Source: Octopus vulgaris (Eukaryota). Taken from it: 64,000 nt of DNA. Location: NCBI GenBank assembly GCA_951406725.2, contig OX597818.1:51336001-51400000 (forward strand). Reading direction: 5' to 3'. The position numbers were made by a program. Below are positions 34,852 through 63,700 of the stretch, one piece after another; positions within the stretch are counted from its first letter, which is position 1; each line of letters opens with the position of its first letter.

Positions 34852-35828
34852 TATGTGTATATACATATATATTTATATACATAATATATGTATATGTGTG
34901 TGTATATATATATATATATATATGTGCATATATATATATATATATATATGTATATGTGCATATATATATATGTATATGTGTGCATATATAAATATATATA
35001 CATACATATATATATATATTATTTTTCTTTTCCATATTTTAATCTAAATTTGAATATCTCGGAATTTTCAAAGATTTTCTTAGGGAATTTTTCACGAAGG
35101 TAACCTTAAAGTTCTTTTCTTTTCTTTTCTATCTGTATGGTTGTGCATGCATATGTGTTTATGCGTTTGCATTAAGGGGGTAGGGAAGGGGAAGGGGGGG
35201 GGAGAATGAGAGATAGAGAGAAAGAGATAAATTTCCATGTGTTCTAGCCCTGAGATCCTTTGCTCTCCAAACTTTTATAATTATTATTAATTATAATTAT
35301 AATTATTATTAAAAAAAAAAAAAAAAAAAAAAAAGAAATGTAGTGCAAATAGTCATGTGATTAGATGTTGGCAGGACCAACAATCTAGTGAAAATCTGAT
35401 CTACAAGCTGAAATGAGTTCTACTTCATTGAGATTATTTTTTTTTTTTGTTTTAAAGTATTATTTTTTTTTACTTATTTATTTTTACTTTTTACCCCTCC
35501 TCCCCAAAAACTGAAAGGTTTACATGGTGAAAATGTTGTCCACTGGTTCCCATGAGTTGTAACGATTGCTGTAACCTTTCCATTTGACCAAAACCTCTTG
35601 ATGACCTTTCTGCACACGTTTCTTTAAGACTTTCTCTACAATAAAAACCTCACCTGGAAAGAGATGAAACACAGAAAAGAACACAGGTGTTATTAATTAA
35701 TTAACAGGTTACTCACAGCAGTGTCACGGTAGCTGTGGTTAGAATAGCAGAGGATTGGTAGAGAGAAAATGGTTAAACAGAGAAACGAACTAGTTGGAAT
35801 AAAGAGAGGGAGTATAAGAGAGAGAGAG

Positions 35829-35862
<34 letters not shown>

Positions 35863-60700: not shown

Positions 60701-63700
60701 CTAACGTTTCTACCAGCTCACTGCCTTTGGAAATATATAACCAACAGCGCTACTGTCCACTAAATGTAATATAAAACATTAAATAAAGAGCCTGCTCTTC
60801 AACATTTATTGTCTGTATCAGGGCACCTGATTGTCTTGTACACATTGGCTGATGTTGTCAGTACTTTGGGTGCAGGAGTGGCTGTGTGGTAAGTAGCTTG
60901 CTTCCCAACCACATGGTTCTGAGCACCTTGGGCAAGCGTCTTCTACTATAAGCCTCGGGCCGACCAAAGCCTTGTAAGTGGATTTGGTAGATGGAAACTG
61001 AAAGAAGCCTGTCATATATATGTATATGTATGTGTGTGTTTGTGTGTCTGTGTTTGTTCTCCCCCAACATCGCTTGACAACCGATGCTGTTGTGTTTATG
61101 TCCCCGTAACTTAGCGGTTCGGCAAAAAGCGACCGATAGAATAAGTACAAGGCTTACAAAGAATAAGTCCTGGGGTTGATTTCCTCAACTAAAGGCTGGT
61201 GCTCCAGCATAACCGCAGTCAAATGACTGAAACAAGTAAAAGAGTACACTATTTTCACTTAGTTTCTCCTGTGAGTTAACACTGACATCAGTCACAGACA
61301 AACTGCAGCTCACAGAACTTCTGAATGGTACACCTAATGAAAAATTACCTTGAATTTTGTTTAGTGGCATGGTCTGCTTAACGTTGAGCCACCTCTCACG
61401 TGGTCCCTTGAAAAGGGTTGCTTCATGTCAGATTTATACAATGAATCATATACAAATTACTTCCCTCAAGACACTGCAGAATTTCTAAATTTGGTGCCCA
61501 AGTCTTGCTACCTTTTCTTACTGAAGATACTATAATAATAACTGTGGCAGGGGTGGTGGTCATGGTTGTAATAGTAGTAGTTGTTGTCATTGTCATTTAC
61601 TGTCTATTTTTCATACTCAAGAGGAGCCGACATACTAGAGTATAGTGTCAAGTTCCAATACCTGCTTTGGTATAGTTTCTACAGCTGGATGCCCTTCCAA
61701 ACACCAAATATTATTTTGGTAAATACTTCTTTAAGCAGTATAACTTACTTCTTTAGGTGAAACTGGATTTTTTCAGAAGCATTTAAAATTTTCCGAAGAT
61801 CCGATATTCCATAGGACTGTGGTCTTTTTAGGATAATGCCATCCGGGAAGCCCTCAATGTCGATAAACATAGGATCTTTTTCCAGTTTAACATATGGCAT
61901 GGTCCGAGTACTGCCGCAACATAAAGCTGGTAGCGAAAAGGATAAGAAAATAAGTGAGCAGAATAGATAGATATATAGACAAAGAGAAGAGTGAAAGTGG
62001 AAGATTAACAGTTTTAGAAGTTGAATATTGCCAGGATTATTGGGTGTGTAAATACAGTTGAGGGAAACTAGCAATTAATATGAAGGTGAGTCAATTTCAG
62101 TAAATATGAAAACCAAGATCAGAAATTTCAAATGGAGCTATTTTCCCTTCCAAAATATTTTTAATGTTTTCTCTTTTAAAACTGGATTCCACCCACCAAA
62201 TCTAATAGGTATTTTGACTCGACTTGACTTGAGACAGCATGCACCCGGGGTGGGTTGAGCTGGCTTCATTCATCCTCAATGCTGCATCTCTCACAAACGC
62301 CGACCCAGACCTGGCGATTTGAGGCTAACGACCACGTGATCTCCAACCACTCCTTATTCCAGTGGCGAACGCCGTAGATATGGGGGCCTGGGTTGGGTTC
62401 CAGATCAGCCTCGACTGTCATCAGCCAGGTTTTTCGTTGTCCATCACATCACTTTCGCCAACCCTGAAGGGGAGCCGGGGCAATTGCTTCGTAGATGAAT
62501 TCTCCTGGTTGACGACGGAGGGCATGACCCAGCCAACGCAGACATCTCATTAGGATGACTTGTTGGGGGGAGGTGATTCTGCACTATTAAAGGCTCGCCA
62601 AGCCTTCAATAGGTATTTTAGTGATTACTAGTAATGCAGCCTTGTAGGATAATACAATATAAGCATACTTTACTACCAAATGACTCAATATGCCTAAATA
62701 AAAACTGAAATAGGTTCATACTCTCTTCAACACTGATGTAATCTAAAGAAAGGATATGGTATCCGTGTTGAGATGCAGGAGTCGTCAGAGAAACACTGGG
62801 AATTCACTAGACTGCTTTAACCCTTTTGTGACCATATTTCTGTTAAGATGCTCTGTGTTTCTTTCAATTAATTTTAAATATAACAAAGAATTTAGTAAAA
62901 TAACTTAGTTATCATTAAGCTAGTGTTAGGAACATAAATTGTGACTAAGGTTTGGTAGAAGATTTTAATTCAAAACTTATGAAAACAGGACATTTGTACT
63001 ACAGAGCCAGGGGCGGTTTCAGGCAGGTTGGTATCAAAAGGGTTAAGGACTCCAGTACCAAGTTAACAATTCTGATCTCTTCTGGTAATCAGAGTCACAG
63101 TTCATAACTAAAGAAGGAGCCTCAACATCAGTTGCAACATCACATAATGTTTCCTCCTCATCACCTATCCAAATGATAAGATGTAATTTGAGTGTGTGTG
63201 TGGCTCTTTTATAAATCTGAAATAAAGTGTTATGAAAATGGACTCACAAAACTTCTCATTGAATAAGGCCTTCACTTCTTCTGCAAGCTTCTTACGATTG
63301 TTTTTGGGCTGATCTTTGCCCTTGGCTGAAACGAATAAAAGAAGAGAAAATATTTTTAGTCTATACAAATCACAGTTCATAGCGTGAGTGATTTAATTAA
63401 TTAACTAAAGCTGTATGAAACAAACTATTTTATTAATAATTCAAAGGAAACAAGTAATATAAATAAATGCAGTTAATTGTTTTTCTTTTTTAAGGAAATT
63501 TCTGTAGTGAGGAAAAATAAAGCCATCAATGTTTTGGATATAGTTTCTCTTCTCTGAGAGACAAAACAGTGAAGAGGAAAGATTTACACAAAATAATGGC
63601 AATAATGGTAGAATGGTGGAGGCAGCGGCCCAAGGAATTGAAATGGTGAGCTAACTATGAGAAGTAGAGTTATAAGTCTATATAGAATATATAACAGTGG

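What the first reader, a model, noticed from the sequence alone, without database searches (positions are those of the whole stretch)
35520..63325. Gene joining a TFII-I (GTF2I) I-repeat to a C-terminal chromodomain
Seen: five minus-strand exons join at GT-AG sites with compatible phases (1-1, 1-2, 2-1, 1-1, 1-stop) into one frame of about 450 aa: I-repeat, a ~320-aa disordered K/S/P linker, then a chromodomain ending at the stop. The last exon lies beyond a 20-kb intron and is invisible in the ORF track. Known: I-repeats are the DNA- and protein-binding modules of GTF2I, GTF2IRD1 and GTF2IRD2, none of which has a chromodomain; chromodomains read methyl-lysine. Inference: a sequence-directed factor coupled to a histone-mark reader, an architecture I do not recognise from any characterised protein.
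Basis: partly seen in the sequence, partly recalled or inferred. Interest (0 to 1): 0.9.

Follow-up and report, generated by a model that had tools for sequence, protein, structure and literature searches.

The report
Octopus I-repeat protein with chromodomain
The five exons do form one cephalopod gene whose protein joins a TFII-I-type I-repeat to a histone-mark-reading chromodomain, and the same unstudied design occurs in scallop, sea cucumber and amphioxus, so it may show what the TFII-I family looked like before vertebrates.

Summary
Five minus-strand exons (63325-63248, 61926-61749, 59568-59435, 56803-55967, 35653-35520) have AG/GT sites and phases 1-1, 1-2, 2-1, 1-1, 1-stop, giving 452 codons. 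Searched exon by exon, E2 scores GTF2I at 54.5 bits and E5 scores Chromo at 52.7 bits.

The 20.3-kb junction matches residue for residue the predicted Octopus bimaculoides protein LOC106869674. It is also present in four other cephalopod proteins, two of them on contigs of 2-4 kb.

The design is not unique. I-repeat followed by a C-terminal chromodomain, usually after a weak homeodomain, occurs in 9 further 50%-identity clusters. Three are named: Pecten maximus, Holothuria leucospilota and Branchiostoma belcheri. Nine literature searches found no paper describing it.

A conserved module before the I-repeat is shared with the N-termini of multi-repeat vertebrate-type GTF2I proteins.

The cephalopod chromodomain keeps its aromatic cage but lacks the C-terminal helix.

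Most likely it is a chromatin-bound regulator that reads methyl-lysine. That function is inferred, not shown. This is a real gene in an overlooked, ancient, uncharacterised family.

The parts
63248..63325 (-). Exon E1 (phase 1-1). It encodes ..AKGKDQPKNNRKKLAEEVKALFNEKF, the first helix of the I-repeat.
   Evidence: The acceptor CAG and donor GTGAGT were read. tblastn matches P0001 residues 789-814. Scanned alone, it gives no Pfam hit.
61749..61926 (-). Exon E2 (phase 1-2), the main body of the I-repeat.
   Evidence: Pfam GTF2I scores 54.5 bits, E 1.5e-14. The best solved structure is the GTF2IRD1 I-repeat 2dzq, E 8.3e-9. It is 98% identical to P0001 residues 815-873.
59435..59568 (-). Exon E3 (phase 2-1), the P/N/T/K-rich start of the linker.
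   Evidence: Sequence was read. It is 96% identical to P0001 residues 872-918.
55967..56803 (-). Exon E4 (phase 1-1), a 278-aa S/K/P-rich linker.
   Evidence: Sequence was read. It is 96% identical to P0001 residues 919-1198. There is no Pfam hit. It is 59% conserved between octopus and decapod proteins.
56137..56218 (-). A 24-nt (8-aa) tandem repeat inside E4 that encodes xKFKPxES units.
   Evidence: TRF reports period 24, 3.4 copies and 67% matches. KFK[PGS] units also appear in P0003 and P0004.
35654..55966 (-). The last intron, 20313 nt and rich in repeats.
   Evidence: Length is. None of the ORFs of at least 85 aa inside it matches a Pfam family.
35520..35653 (-). Exon E5 (phase 1-stop), a Pc/HP1-type chromodomain that ends at ..NIFTM followed by TAA.
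   Evidence: Pfam Chromo scores 52.7 bits. The best solved structures are CBX4 and CBX8, E 2e-12. The AF2 model has pLDDT 92.7 and three strands. Foldseek matches CBX1, CBX4 and CBX7 with TMq 0.92-0.93. It is identical over 43 of 43 residues to P0001.
35477..35482 (-). An AATAAA hexamer about 40 nt after the stop codon, a possible poly(A) signal.
   Evidence: Read. This is weak evidence because the flank is AT-rich.
63474..63501 (-). A fragment of the exon 5' of E1. It encodes NFLKKEKQL, the end of the conserved pre-I module, but the exon cannot be completed in this window.
   Evidence: It matches P0001 residues 772-780 at 9 of 9 positions. The next 8 conserved residues are not encoded in 63326-64000, and no GT follows the fragment.

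Best explanation
The region holds the last five coding exons of the cephalopod gene known in O. bimaculoides as uncharacterized LOC106869674. The protein is about 1240 aa.

Its order of parts is: a low-complexity N-terminus, a weak homeodomain-like region, a highly conserved 'pre-I' module, one I-repeat, a disordered S/K/P linker of about 320 aa, and a C-terminal Pc/HP1-type chromodomain.

The gene belongs to an old bilaterian family with the same order of parts. That family shares both the pre-I module and the I-repeat with vertebrate TFII-I/GTF2IRD1.

Shown here: the exon structure, the domains, the conservation and the family.

Inferred: the protein is nuclear and sits on chromatin. The chromodomain's intact aromatic cage binds a trimethyl-lysine, most likely H3K27me3 or H3K9me3. 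The I-repeat, pre-I module and upstream homeodomain-like region contact DNA or partner proteins. The protein would thereby link sequence-specific or partner-specific targeting to a repressive histone mark.
For: Gene structure. The splice sites and phases are correct. P0001 maps collinearly onto E1-E5 with no gap at the E4/E5 junction.

Cephalopod relatives. All 5 cephalopod proteins found with E4 carry GTF2I plus Chromo and end in NIFTM. Two of them (P0003, P0004) lie on contigs of 2179 and 3624 nt. Contigs that short cannot hold 20-kb introns, so they are most simply transcripts.

Constraint between octopus and decapod proteins: pre-I 94%, chromodomain 89%, I-repeat exons 76-77%, linker 52-59%, spacer 34%.

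Chromodomain. Cage position 3 is F or Y in 14 of 14 family rows. Position 24 is W in 14 of 14. Position 27 is aromatic in 13 of 14. The closest solved structures are CBX4/8/2/6/7, then HP1. The model has pLDDT 92.7 and superposes on CBX1, CBX4 and CBX7 at 0.5-0.7 A rmsd.

Family. These are the 5 cephalopod proteins, the 9 below, and P0090 and P0122, whose chromodomains Pfam did not confirm at E<=0.001. Pfam confirms both domains in 9 non-cephalopod representatives out of the 61 I-repeat-side hits scanned. Named members: P0028 Pecten maximus, P0041 Holothuria leucospilota and P0121 Branchiostoma belcheri.

Link to TFII-I. An HMM of the pre-I module alone, built from 11 rows of this family, hits multi-repeat GTF2I-type proteins just before their first repeat. 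Scores at Z=1e6: P0010 40.4 bits, P0007 37.4, P0008 25.7, P0006 21.4. BLASTP gives the same alignment.
Against: No RNA from this species was available, so the junction rests on homologues and gene models.

The cephalopod chromodomain stops at Pfam position 40 of 53. It lacks the C-terminal helix that all 9 non-cephalopod members keep as 7-29 extra residues. Canonical folding or peptide binding may therefore be altered.

No binding data exist for any member.

Homeodomain evidence is weak. Only 1 member (P0098, 25.9 bits) passes the Pfam cut-off. The cephalopod proteins show only sub-threshold HTH hits. The family-profile hit to 2da4 (E 2e-10) counts as a homeodomain only from my memory of that entry.

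The exon just 5' of E1 cannot be completed in this window. The local assembly or this copy may therefore be imperfect.
Confidence: 0.6

Rival explanations
1. The gene model is the same, but the truncated cephalopod chromodomain no longer reads methyl-lysine. It would serve instead as a protein-protein or nucleic-acid contact, or would need another part of the protein to complete its fold.
For: The domain ends at Pfam position 40 of 53, and the model has no C-terminal helix. All 9 non-cephalopod relatives keep extra C-terminal residues, and all 5 cephalopod rows have lost them.
Against: The three cage positions stay aromatic in all 5 cephalopod rows. Identity between octopus and decapod proteins is 89%, the second highest of any region. 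The model is confident and superposes on peptide-bound CBX and HP1 chromodomains. An AF2 model cannot prove stability.
Confidence: 0.25
2. The I-repeat and pre-I module do not bind DNA. The protein would be an adaptor that brings partner proteins to marked chromatin, as HP1 and CBX adaptors do, and not a sequence-directed factor.
For: From memory, I-repeats of TFII-I proteins mediate protein contacts as well as DNA contacts. Only one repeat is present. The homeodomain evidence in cephalopods is below threshold.
Against: The family profile matches a solved domain that I recall as a homeobox, at E 2e-10. One member, P0098, passes the Pfam Homeodomain cut-off, and 3 more of the 61 scanned give sub-threshold N-terminal homeodomain-type hits at E<=0.001. 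At E<=10, 6 of 15 members show Homeodomain hits at that same position. The pre-I model resembles MADS/MEF2 DNA-binding folds, weakly.
Confidence: 0.3
3. The E4-to-E5 join is a gene-model artefact or a minor isoform. The chromodomain exon would belong to another transcript or be a transposon-derived relic.
For: The intron is 20.3 kb and full of repeats. The octopus record is called 'isoform X1', so other isoforms exist. No RNA from this species was seen.
Against: E5 has no start codon and needs an upstream phase-1 donor. The join is found in 5 of 5 cephalopod proteins, including two short contigs. Compact proteins of 301-475 aa in three other phyla have the same domain order. The nearest chromodomains are CBX and HP1. 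No integrase or reverse-transcriptase hit lies nearby. The next gene found downstream is on the other strand.
Confidence: 0.04

Closest known systems
Vertebrate TFII-I family (GTF2I, GTF2IRD1, GTF2IRD2)
   Same: The I-repeat scores above the Pfam cut-off and matches the solved I-repeat structures. A conserved module of about 60 aa just before the first repeat is shared.
   Different: It has one repeat where the vertebrate proteins have 2-7. Its I-repeat falls on the other side of an SH-aLRT 97 branch from all 109 repeats of multi-repeat-type proteins. It carries a C-terminal chromodomain and an upstream homeodomain-like region, which those proteins lack.
Polycomb-type CBX proteins (CBX2/4/6/7/8, Drosophila Pc) and HP1
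   Same: The chromodomain sequence is closest to CBX4 and CBX8 (E 2e-12), then to HP1. The aromatic cage is kept. The modelled fold superposes at 0.5-0.7 A rmsd.
   Different: The chromodomain is at the C-terminus, not the N-terminus. There is no Pc box (PF17218) and no chromoshadow domain. The C-terminal helix is missing in cephalopods.
Predicted invertebrate proteins with the same design: O. bimaculoides LOC106869674, Argonauta hians 'ifkA-like', Acanthosepion pharaonis 'Chromo domain-containing protein', Pecten maximus LOC117330234, Holothuria leucospilota 'GTF2IRD1', Branchiostoma belcheri LOC109484858
   Same: The order of parts is the same: pre-I module, one I-repeat, a linker, then a C-terminal chromodomain. 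The window is 96-98% identical to the O. bimaculoides protein over E2-E5.
   Different: Non-cephalopod members are short (301-475 aa). They have acidic linkers and keep the chromodomain helix stub. Cephalopods added a long low-complexity N-terminus and a basic linker of about 320 aa. None has been studied.
Proteins that pair a DNA-contacting part with a chromodomain, such as CBX2 with its AT-hook and the CHD remodellers (recalled from memory, not tested here)
   Same: The general logic is the same: a mark reader joined to a nucleic-acid contact.
   Different: The DNA-contacting modules are unrelated. No I-repeat or homeodomain is involved, and there is no homology outside the chromodomain.

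Membership tests
TFII-I / GTF2I family | At least one GTF2I-like repeat above the Pfam gathering score | tested here: met
   E2 alone scores 54.5 bits against a cut-off of 27. The full orthologues score 54-57 bits.
TFII-I / GTF2I family | Several tandem I-repeats (2-6 in the named vertebrate members, from memory) | tested here: not met
   There is one repeat in each of the 5 cephalopod proteins.
TFII-I / GTF2I family | A conserved N-terminal module directly before repeat 1 | tested here: met
   The pre-I HMM hits multi-repeat proteins at about residues 26-110, before their first repeat, at 21-40 bits with Z=1e6. BLASTP agrees. The window itself holds only the last 9 residues of the module.
TFII-I / GTF2I family | The I-repeat groups among the vertebrate repeats | tested here: not met
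   In a tree of 143 repeats, the 34 repeats of the homeodomain/chromodomain type are separated from the 109 multi-repeat-type repeats by an SH-aLRT 97 branch. The alignment has few columns and the tree is unrooted.
Canonical chromodomain (PF00385, HP1/Pc type) | Pfam score above the cut-off and a three-stranded sheet | tested here: met
   The score is 52.7 bits against a cut-off of 25.1. The model has strands at 5-14, 17-24 and 33-36 with pLDDT 92.7. TMq to CBX structures is 0.92-0.93.
Canonical chromodomain (PF00385, HP1/Pc type) | Three aromatic cage residues | tested here: met
   F3, W24 and Y27 of E5 align with the F, W and W of CBX4. They are conserved in the family. Which residues form the cage is recalled, not tested.
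Canonical chromodomain (PF00385, HP1/Pc type) | A C-terminal alpha-helix packing on the sheet | tested here: not met
   The profile is matched only to position 40 of 53, and the protein ends 2 residues later. The model has no helix of 4 or more residues.
Canonical chromodomain (PF00385, HP1/Pc type) | Binding of methylated lysine | not testable with these tools
   This needs peptide-binding assays.
Polycomb CBX / HP1 proteins | An N-terminal chromodomain plus a Pc box (PF17218) or a chromoshadow domain | tested here: not met
   The only Pfam hits in P0001-P0005 are GTF2I and Chromo, and the chromodomain is C-terminal.
Bilaterian homeodomain-like / pre-I / I-repeat / chromodomain family (undescribed; database models only) | One I-repeat followed by a C-terminal chromodomain, collinear with the orthologues | tested here: met
   
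Bilaterian homeodomain-like / pre-I / I-repeat / chromodomain family (undescribed; database models only) | An N-terminal homeodomain-like region | tested here: inconclusive
   The 5' exons lie outside the window. In relatives, P0098 scores 25.9 bits against a cut-off of 22.9, and the others are below the cut-off. The family profile hits 2da4 at E 2e-10. The cephalopod P0003 shows only weak HTH hits.

The most novel reading that the evidence does not exclude
This gene would represent the pre-vertebrate form of the Williams-syndrome TFII-I family. The bilaterian ancestor would have had one I-repeat behind a pre-I module, flanked by a divergent homeodomain and a Pc/HP1-type chromodomain. Amphioxus, echinoderms and molluscs kept that design. 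Vertebrates lost both flanking domains and multiplied the repeat. The I-repeat fold, listed in one paper as a jawed-vertebrate novelty and counted as absent from amphioxus in another, would then be bilaterian, or eumetazoan if the cnidarian lead holds. The ancestral job of the family would have been tied to reading repressive histone methylation.
Probability: 0.45. Interest if true: 0.7.

Novelty: new variant of a known kind. Interest (0 to 1): 0.5.

Why it matters
TFII-I and GTF2IRD1 are dosage-sensitive regulators deleted in Williams-Beuren syndrome. Their origin is usually treated as vertebrate-specific. One paper lists the I-repeat fold as a Gnathostomata character. A transcription-factor census counts the family as absent from amphioxus.

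The present gene shows that an I-repeat, together with the module that precedes repeat 1 in TFII-I, exists in molluscs, an echinoderm and amphioxus. There it is wired to a chromodomain.

If the common-ancestry reading holds, it gives a concrete, testable idea of the family's original role, namely binding to methyl-marked chromatin. It also offers compact invertebrate proteins of 300-475 aa in which the I-repeat can be studied as a single copy.

For genome annotation, it shows that a terminal exon 20 kb away is genuine. It also shows that several database names for members ('ifkA', 'La ribonucleoprotein', 'GTF2IRD1') do not describe this domain design.

Tried and rejected
- **Transposon origin of E5.** Rejected. 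The nearest sequences are CBX and HP1, not integrase chromodomains. Among the 78 ORFs of at least 85 aa scanned across the window, the only clear Pfam hits are two Helicase_C exons on the plus strand; two repeat ORFs at 31.6-32.1 kb gave sub-threshold DUF4291 hits.
- **A further chromodomain exon downstream of a possible donor at the stop.** Rejected. All 5 cephalopod proteins end at NIFTM.
- **Completing the exon 5' of E1.** A degenerate pattern search gave 1 hit at 1726-1748, which is irrelevant, against 0.31 expected by chance. A BLOSUM scan found nothing in 63326-64000. This is unresolved.
- **Naming the members.** A profile search then named only 2, and a single-protein search named 1 more. 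The Atlas places two of them, P0061 and P0045, next to a 58-member cluster that is mostly Mollusca (scores 0.92 and 0.94). A mostly cnidarian homeobox/GTF2I cluster scored 0.81, which is a lead only.
- **Literature.** Searches found no description of an I-repeat/chromodomain protein. One search was badly designed, because no listed paper held 'GTF2I'. One search did not identify PDB entry 2da4.
- **SRF/MADS check of the pre-I module in Pfam.** Only 1 of 15 proteins gave a hit (P0061, E 0.66, 9.9 bits), which is not significant.
- **Not done.** No RNA evidence was available. The bacterial and archaeal genome collection was not used because it is irrelevant here. Paper supplements are closed, and Table S1 of PMC8122590 may bear on the GTF2I counts.
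Full report
**Observation**

- E1 63325-63248
- E2 61926-61749
- E3 59568-59435
- E4 56803-55967
- E5 35653-35520, with TAA at 35522-35520

Every acceptor is a pyrimidine tract ending in CAG. The four donors are GTGAGT, GTAAGT, GTGAGA and GTAAGT. The phases are 1-1, 1-2, 2-1, 1-1 and 1-stop. The exons add up to 452 whole codons, and the introns are 1321, 2180, 2631 and 20313 nt.

Each exon was searched on its own, and the joined product was judged from database proteins.

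**Domains, exon by exon**

- E2 alone scores GTF2I (PF02946) at 54.5 bits against a cut-off of 27.
- E5 alone scores Chromo (PF00385) at 52.7 bits against a cut-off of 25.1.
- E1 and E4 match nothing, and E3 was not scanned.
- Against solved structures, E2 is closest to a GTF2IRD1 I-repeat (2dzq, E 8.3e-9; 10 chains at E<=0.01, all I-repeats).
- E5 is closest to CBX4 and CBX8 (E 2e-12), then CBX2/6/7, then HP1 proteins (53 distinct chains at E<=0.001).

**Is the 20-kb junction real?**

A search with E4 among longer proteins returned 5 proteins, and all 5 carry both domains:
- O. bimaculoides 'uncharacterized protein LOC106869674 isoform X1' (P0001, 1242 aa, 97% identical)
- Argonauta hians (P0002, 1273 aa, 81%)
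- two unnamed proteins (P0003 of 646 aa and P0004 of 953 aa, about 60%)
- Acanthosepion pharaonis 'Chromo domain-containing protein' (P0005, 791 aa)

All five end in ..NIFTM. tblastn of P0001 against the window maps E2-E5 at 96-98% identity. It also maps E1, and it leaves no residue unaccounted for between E4 and E5.

P0003 and P0004 sit on contigs of 2179 and 3624 nt. Contigs that short cannot contain such introns, so they are most simply transcripts. This last point is an inference. No RNA from the window's own species was available.

Downstream of E5, a scan of 78 ORFs of at least 85 aa gave clear Pfam hits only to two Helicase_C exons on the plus strand, at 6686-7066 and 9876-10133. Two repeat ORFs at 31.6-32.1 kb gave sub-threshold DUF4291 hits in the same scan. 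E5 therefore looks like the terminal exon, facing a convergent helicase gene. An AATAAA lies about 40 nt after the stop, which is weak evidence in AT-rich sequence.

**The whole protein and its conservation**

The window holds only the C-terminal third of the protein. The orthologues have these parts in order:
- a long low-complexity N-terminus
- a conserved homeodomain-like stretch
- a basic spacer
- a 63-aa 'pre-I' module
- the I-repeat (E1 and E2)
- the linker (E3 and E4)
- the chromodomain (E5)

Identity between octopus (P0001) and a decapod protein (P0004) is as follows:

| Region | Identity |
|---|---|
| pre-I module | 94% |
| chromodomain | 89% |
| E1 | 77% |
| E2 | 76% |
| homeodomain-like | 74% |
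| E4 | 59% |
| E3 | 52% |
| spacer | 34% |

The chromodomain is therefore under strong constraint and is not a decaying relic.

**The chromodomain in detail**

- E5 matches the Pfam profile only to position 40 of 53, and the protein stops two residues later.
- An AF2 model of the 43 residues, made with a 14-row family alignment, has pLDDT 92.7. It shows three strands and no helix of 4 or more residues.
- The model superposes on CBX1, CBX4 and CBX7 chromodomains with TMq 0.92-0.93 and 0.5-0.7 A rmsd.
- The positions that align with the cage residues of CBX4 are aromatic. Position 3 is F or Y in 14 of 14 rows, position 24 is W in 14 of 14, and position 27 is aromatic in 13 of 14. Which residues form the cage is from memory.
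- All 9 non-cephalopod relatives carry 7-29 more residues after this point, and the 5 cephalopod rows carry none. Loss of the helix is therefore a cephalopod trait.

**A wider family**

A full HMMER search with P0003 against 1.84 billion representatives gave 1089 hits at E<=0.001, 77 at E<=1e-10 and 15 at E<=1e-30.

I scanned in Pfam the 61 listed hits whose best stretch lay outside the chromodomain. Nine non-cephalopod proteins of 301-475 aa have GTF2I followed by a C-terminal Chromo: P0028, P0031, P0041, P0045, P0061, P0082, P0100, P0121 and P0126.

My own HMMs, run over all 163 proteins then held, found both domains in 16. These are the 5 cephalopod proteins, those 9, and P0090 and P0122, whose chromodomains Pfam did not confirm at E<=0.001.

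Names could be recovered for three:
- Pecten maximus LOC117330234
- Holothuria leucospilota 'GTF2IRD1'
- Branchiostoma belcheri LOC109484858

The Atlas places two of them beside a 58-member, mostly molluscan cluster (Chromo 69%, GTF2I 67%, Homeodomain 19%; scores 0.92 and 0.94). It also shows, as a lead only (0.81), a 166-member, mostly cnidarian 'Homeobox domain-containing' cluster with GTF2I in 52%.

The N-terminal region is homeodomain-like:
- One member passes the Pfam cut-off (P0098, 25.9 bits against 22.9).
- Three others of the 61 scanned give sub-threshold hits at the same place at E<=0.001: Homeodomain in P0061 and P0090, and HTH_NDX in P0041. At E<=10, 6 of 15 members show Homeodomain hits there.
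- The family profile hits PDB entry 2da4 at E 2e-10. I recall that entry as a homeobox domain.

**Relation to vertebrate TFII-I**

- In a tree of 143 I-repeats, the 34 repeats of this family type are separated from 109 repeats of multi-repeat proteins by an SH-aLRT 97 branch. The alignment has few columns and the tree is unrooted.
- An HMM of the pre-I module alone, built from family members and excluding the I-repeat, hits multi-repeat GTF2I-type proteins once each, just before their first repeat. At Z=1e6 the scores are 40.4, 37.4, 25.7 and 21.4 bits for P0010, P0007, P0008 and P0006. BLASTP shows the same collinear alignment.
- Two adjacent modules in the same order argue for common descent of the gene, not merely a shared domain.
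- One paper lists the GTF2I-like repeat fold as a Gnathostomata character (PMC9541633, one passage seen).
- A transcription-factor census states that, compared with B. floridae and C. elegans, the GTF2I family was found only in tunicates (PMC8122590, two passages seen).
- PMC10641963 (one passage and the start of the abstract seen) concerns mis-annotated hAT transposons, not this family.
- Searches found no description of the design.

**How it most likely works**

Shown: a conserved multi-module nuclear-type protein with an intact-cage Pc/HP1-type chromodomain at its C-terminus and an I-repeat unit of TFII-I type.

Inferred: the chromodomain docks on a trimethyl-lysine mark, with H3K27me3 or H3K9me3 most likely given its nearest relatives. 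The homeodomain-like, pre-I and I-repeat parts would give DNA or partner specificity. The long basic linker would act as a flexible tether; it includes an 8-aa xKFKPxES tandem repeat.

The main doubt is whether a chromodomain without its helix still binds a histone tail.

**Verdict**

The finding is real and correctly read at the sequence level. It is not a one-off. It is the octopus member of an old, unstudied family already present as predicted proteins in public databases. It is interesting mainly for what it may say about the origin of the TFII-I family.

Noticed in passing
window 63474-63503 (-), just outside the finding: After a CAG acceptor, the sequence encodes NFLKKEKQL, which matches the end of the conserved pre-I module of P0001 at 9 of 9 positions. 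The next 8 residues, conserved in all 5 cephalopod proteins, are not encoded anywhere in 63326-64000. No GT donor follows, and the frame runs into a stop. Possible causes are an assembly indel, a species difference, a duplicated or alternative exon, or the true exon lying beyond the window.
   Followed up: partly
P0060 residues 4-77, equivalent to P0001 726-788; mostly outside the window: The pre-I module is the most conserved part of the protein and is in no Pfam family. In an AF2 model (pLDDT 92.3) it forms a long helix, a beta-hairpin and two helices. After the expected I-repeat hits, Foldseek lists MADS-box/MEF2/SRF DNA-binding domains and NRF1 at weak E-values of 0.03-0.4, with TMt up to 0.74 over 62 columns. 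Pfam SRF-TF appears in only 1 of 15 proteins, at E 0.66. This is a lead: the N-terminus of TFII-I-type proteins may hold a MADS-like dimerising fold.
   Followed up: partly
window 56137-56218 and 56001-56065 (-): Inside the linker exon E4 there is a 24-nt tandem repeat encoding xKFKPxES units (3.4 copies). There is also a 30-nt repeat (2.2 copies) encoding K/S/E-rich units. The KFK units are also present in decapod proteins. Their function is unknown.
   Followed up: no
window 6686-7066 (+) and 9876-10133 (+): These are two exons of a DEAD-box helicase, with Helicase_C at 46.0 and 45.7 bits. By eye it looks DDX6/Me31B-like, which is a recalled resemblance. The gene converges on the I-repeat/chromodomain gene.
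   Followed up: partly
window 30000-32400, and scattered copies such as 36578-36954, 41016-41283, 47249-47501, 48114-48632, 51341-51707 and 53607-53912: A SINE-like unit recurs on both strands and shows up as ORFs with the peptide signature ..LDALPNANHS.. It piles up in tandem at 30-32 kb, where GC rises to 0.536. Two ORFs at 40181-40645 (+) and 22023-22514 (+) resemble each other and look like the C-terminal end of a LINE reverse transcriptase, but they have no Pfam hit.
   Followed up: no
database records P0002, P0041, P0164: Source names for family members do not describe this domain design. [quoted passage not shown] All three carry GTF2I plus Chromo.
   Followed up: no
P0026, P0102, P0107, P0058 (representatives): I-repeats also occur fused to other modules. 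These are C2H2 zinc-finger arrays (P0026 with 4 repeats, and P0102), a DDE_1/CENP-B-type transposase (P0107) and DUF3504 (P0058). The taxa are unknown.
   Followed up: no
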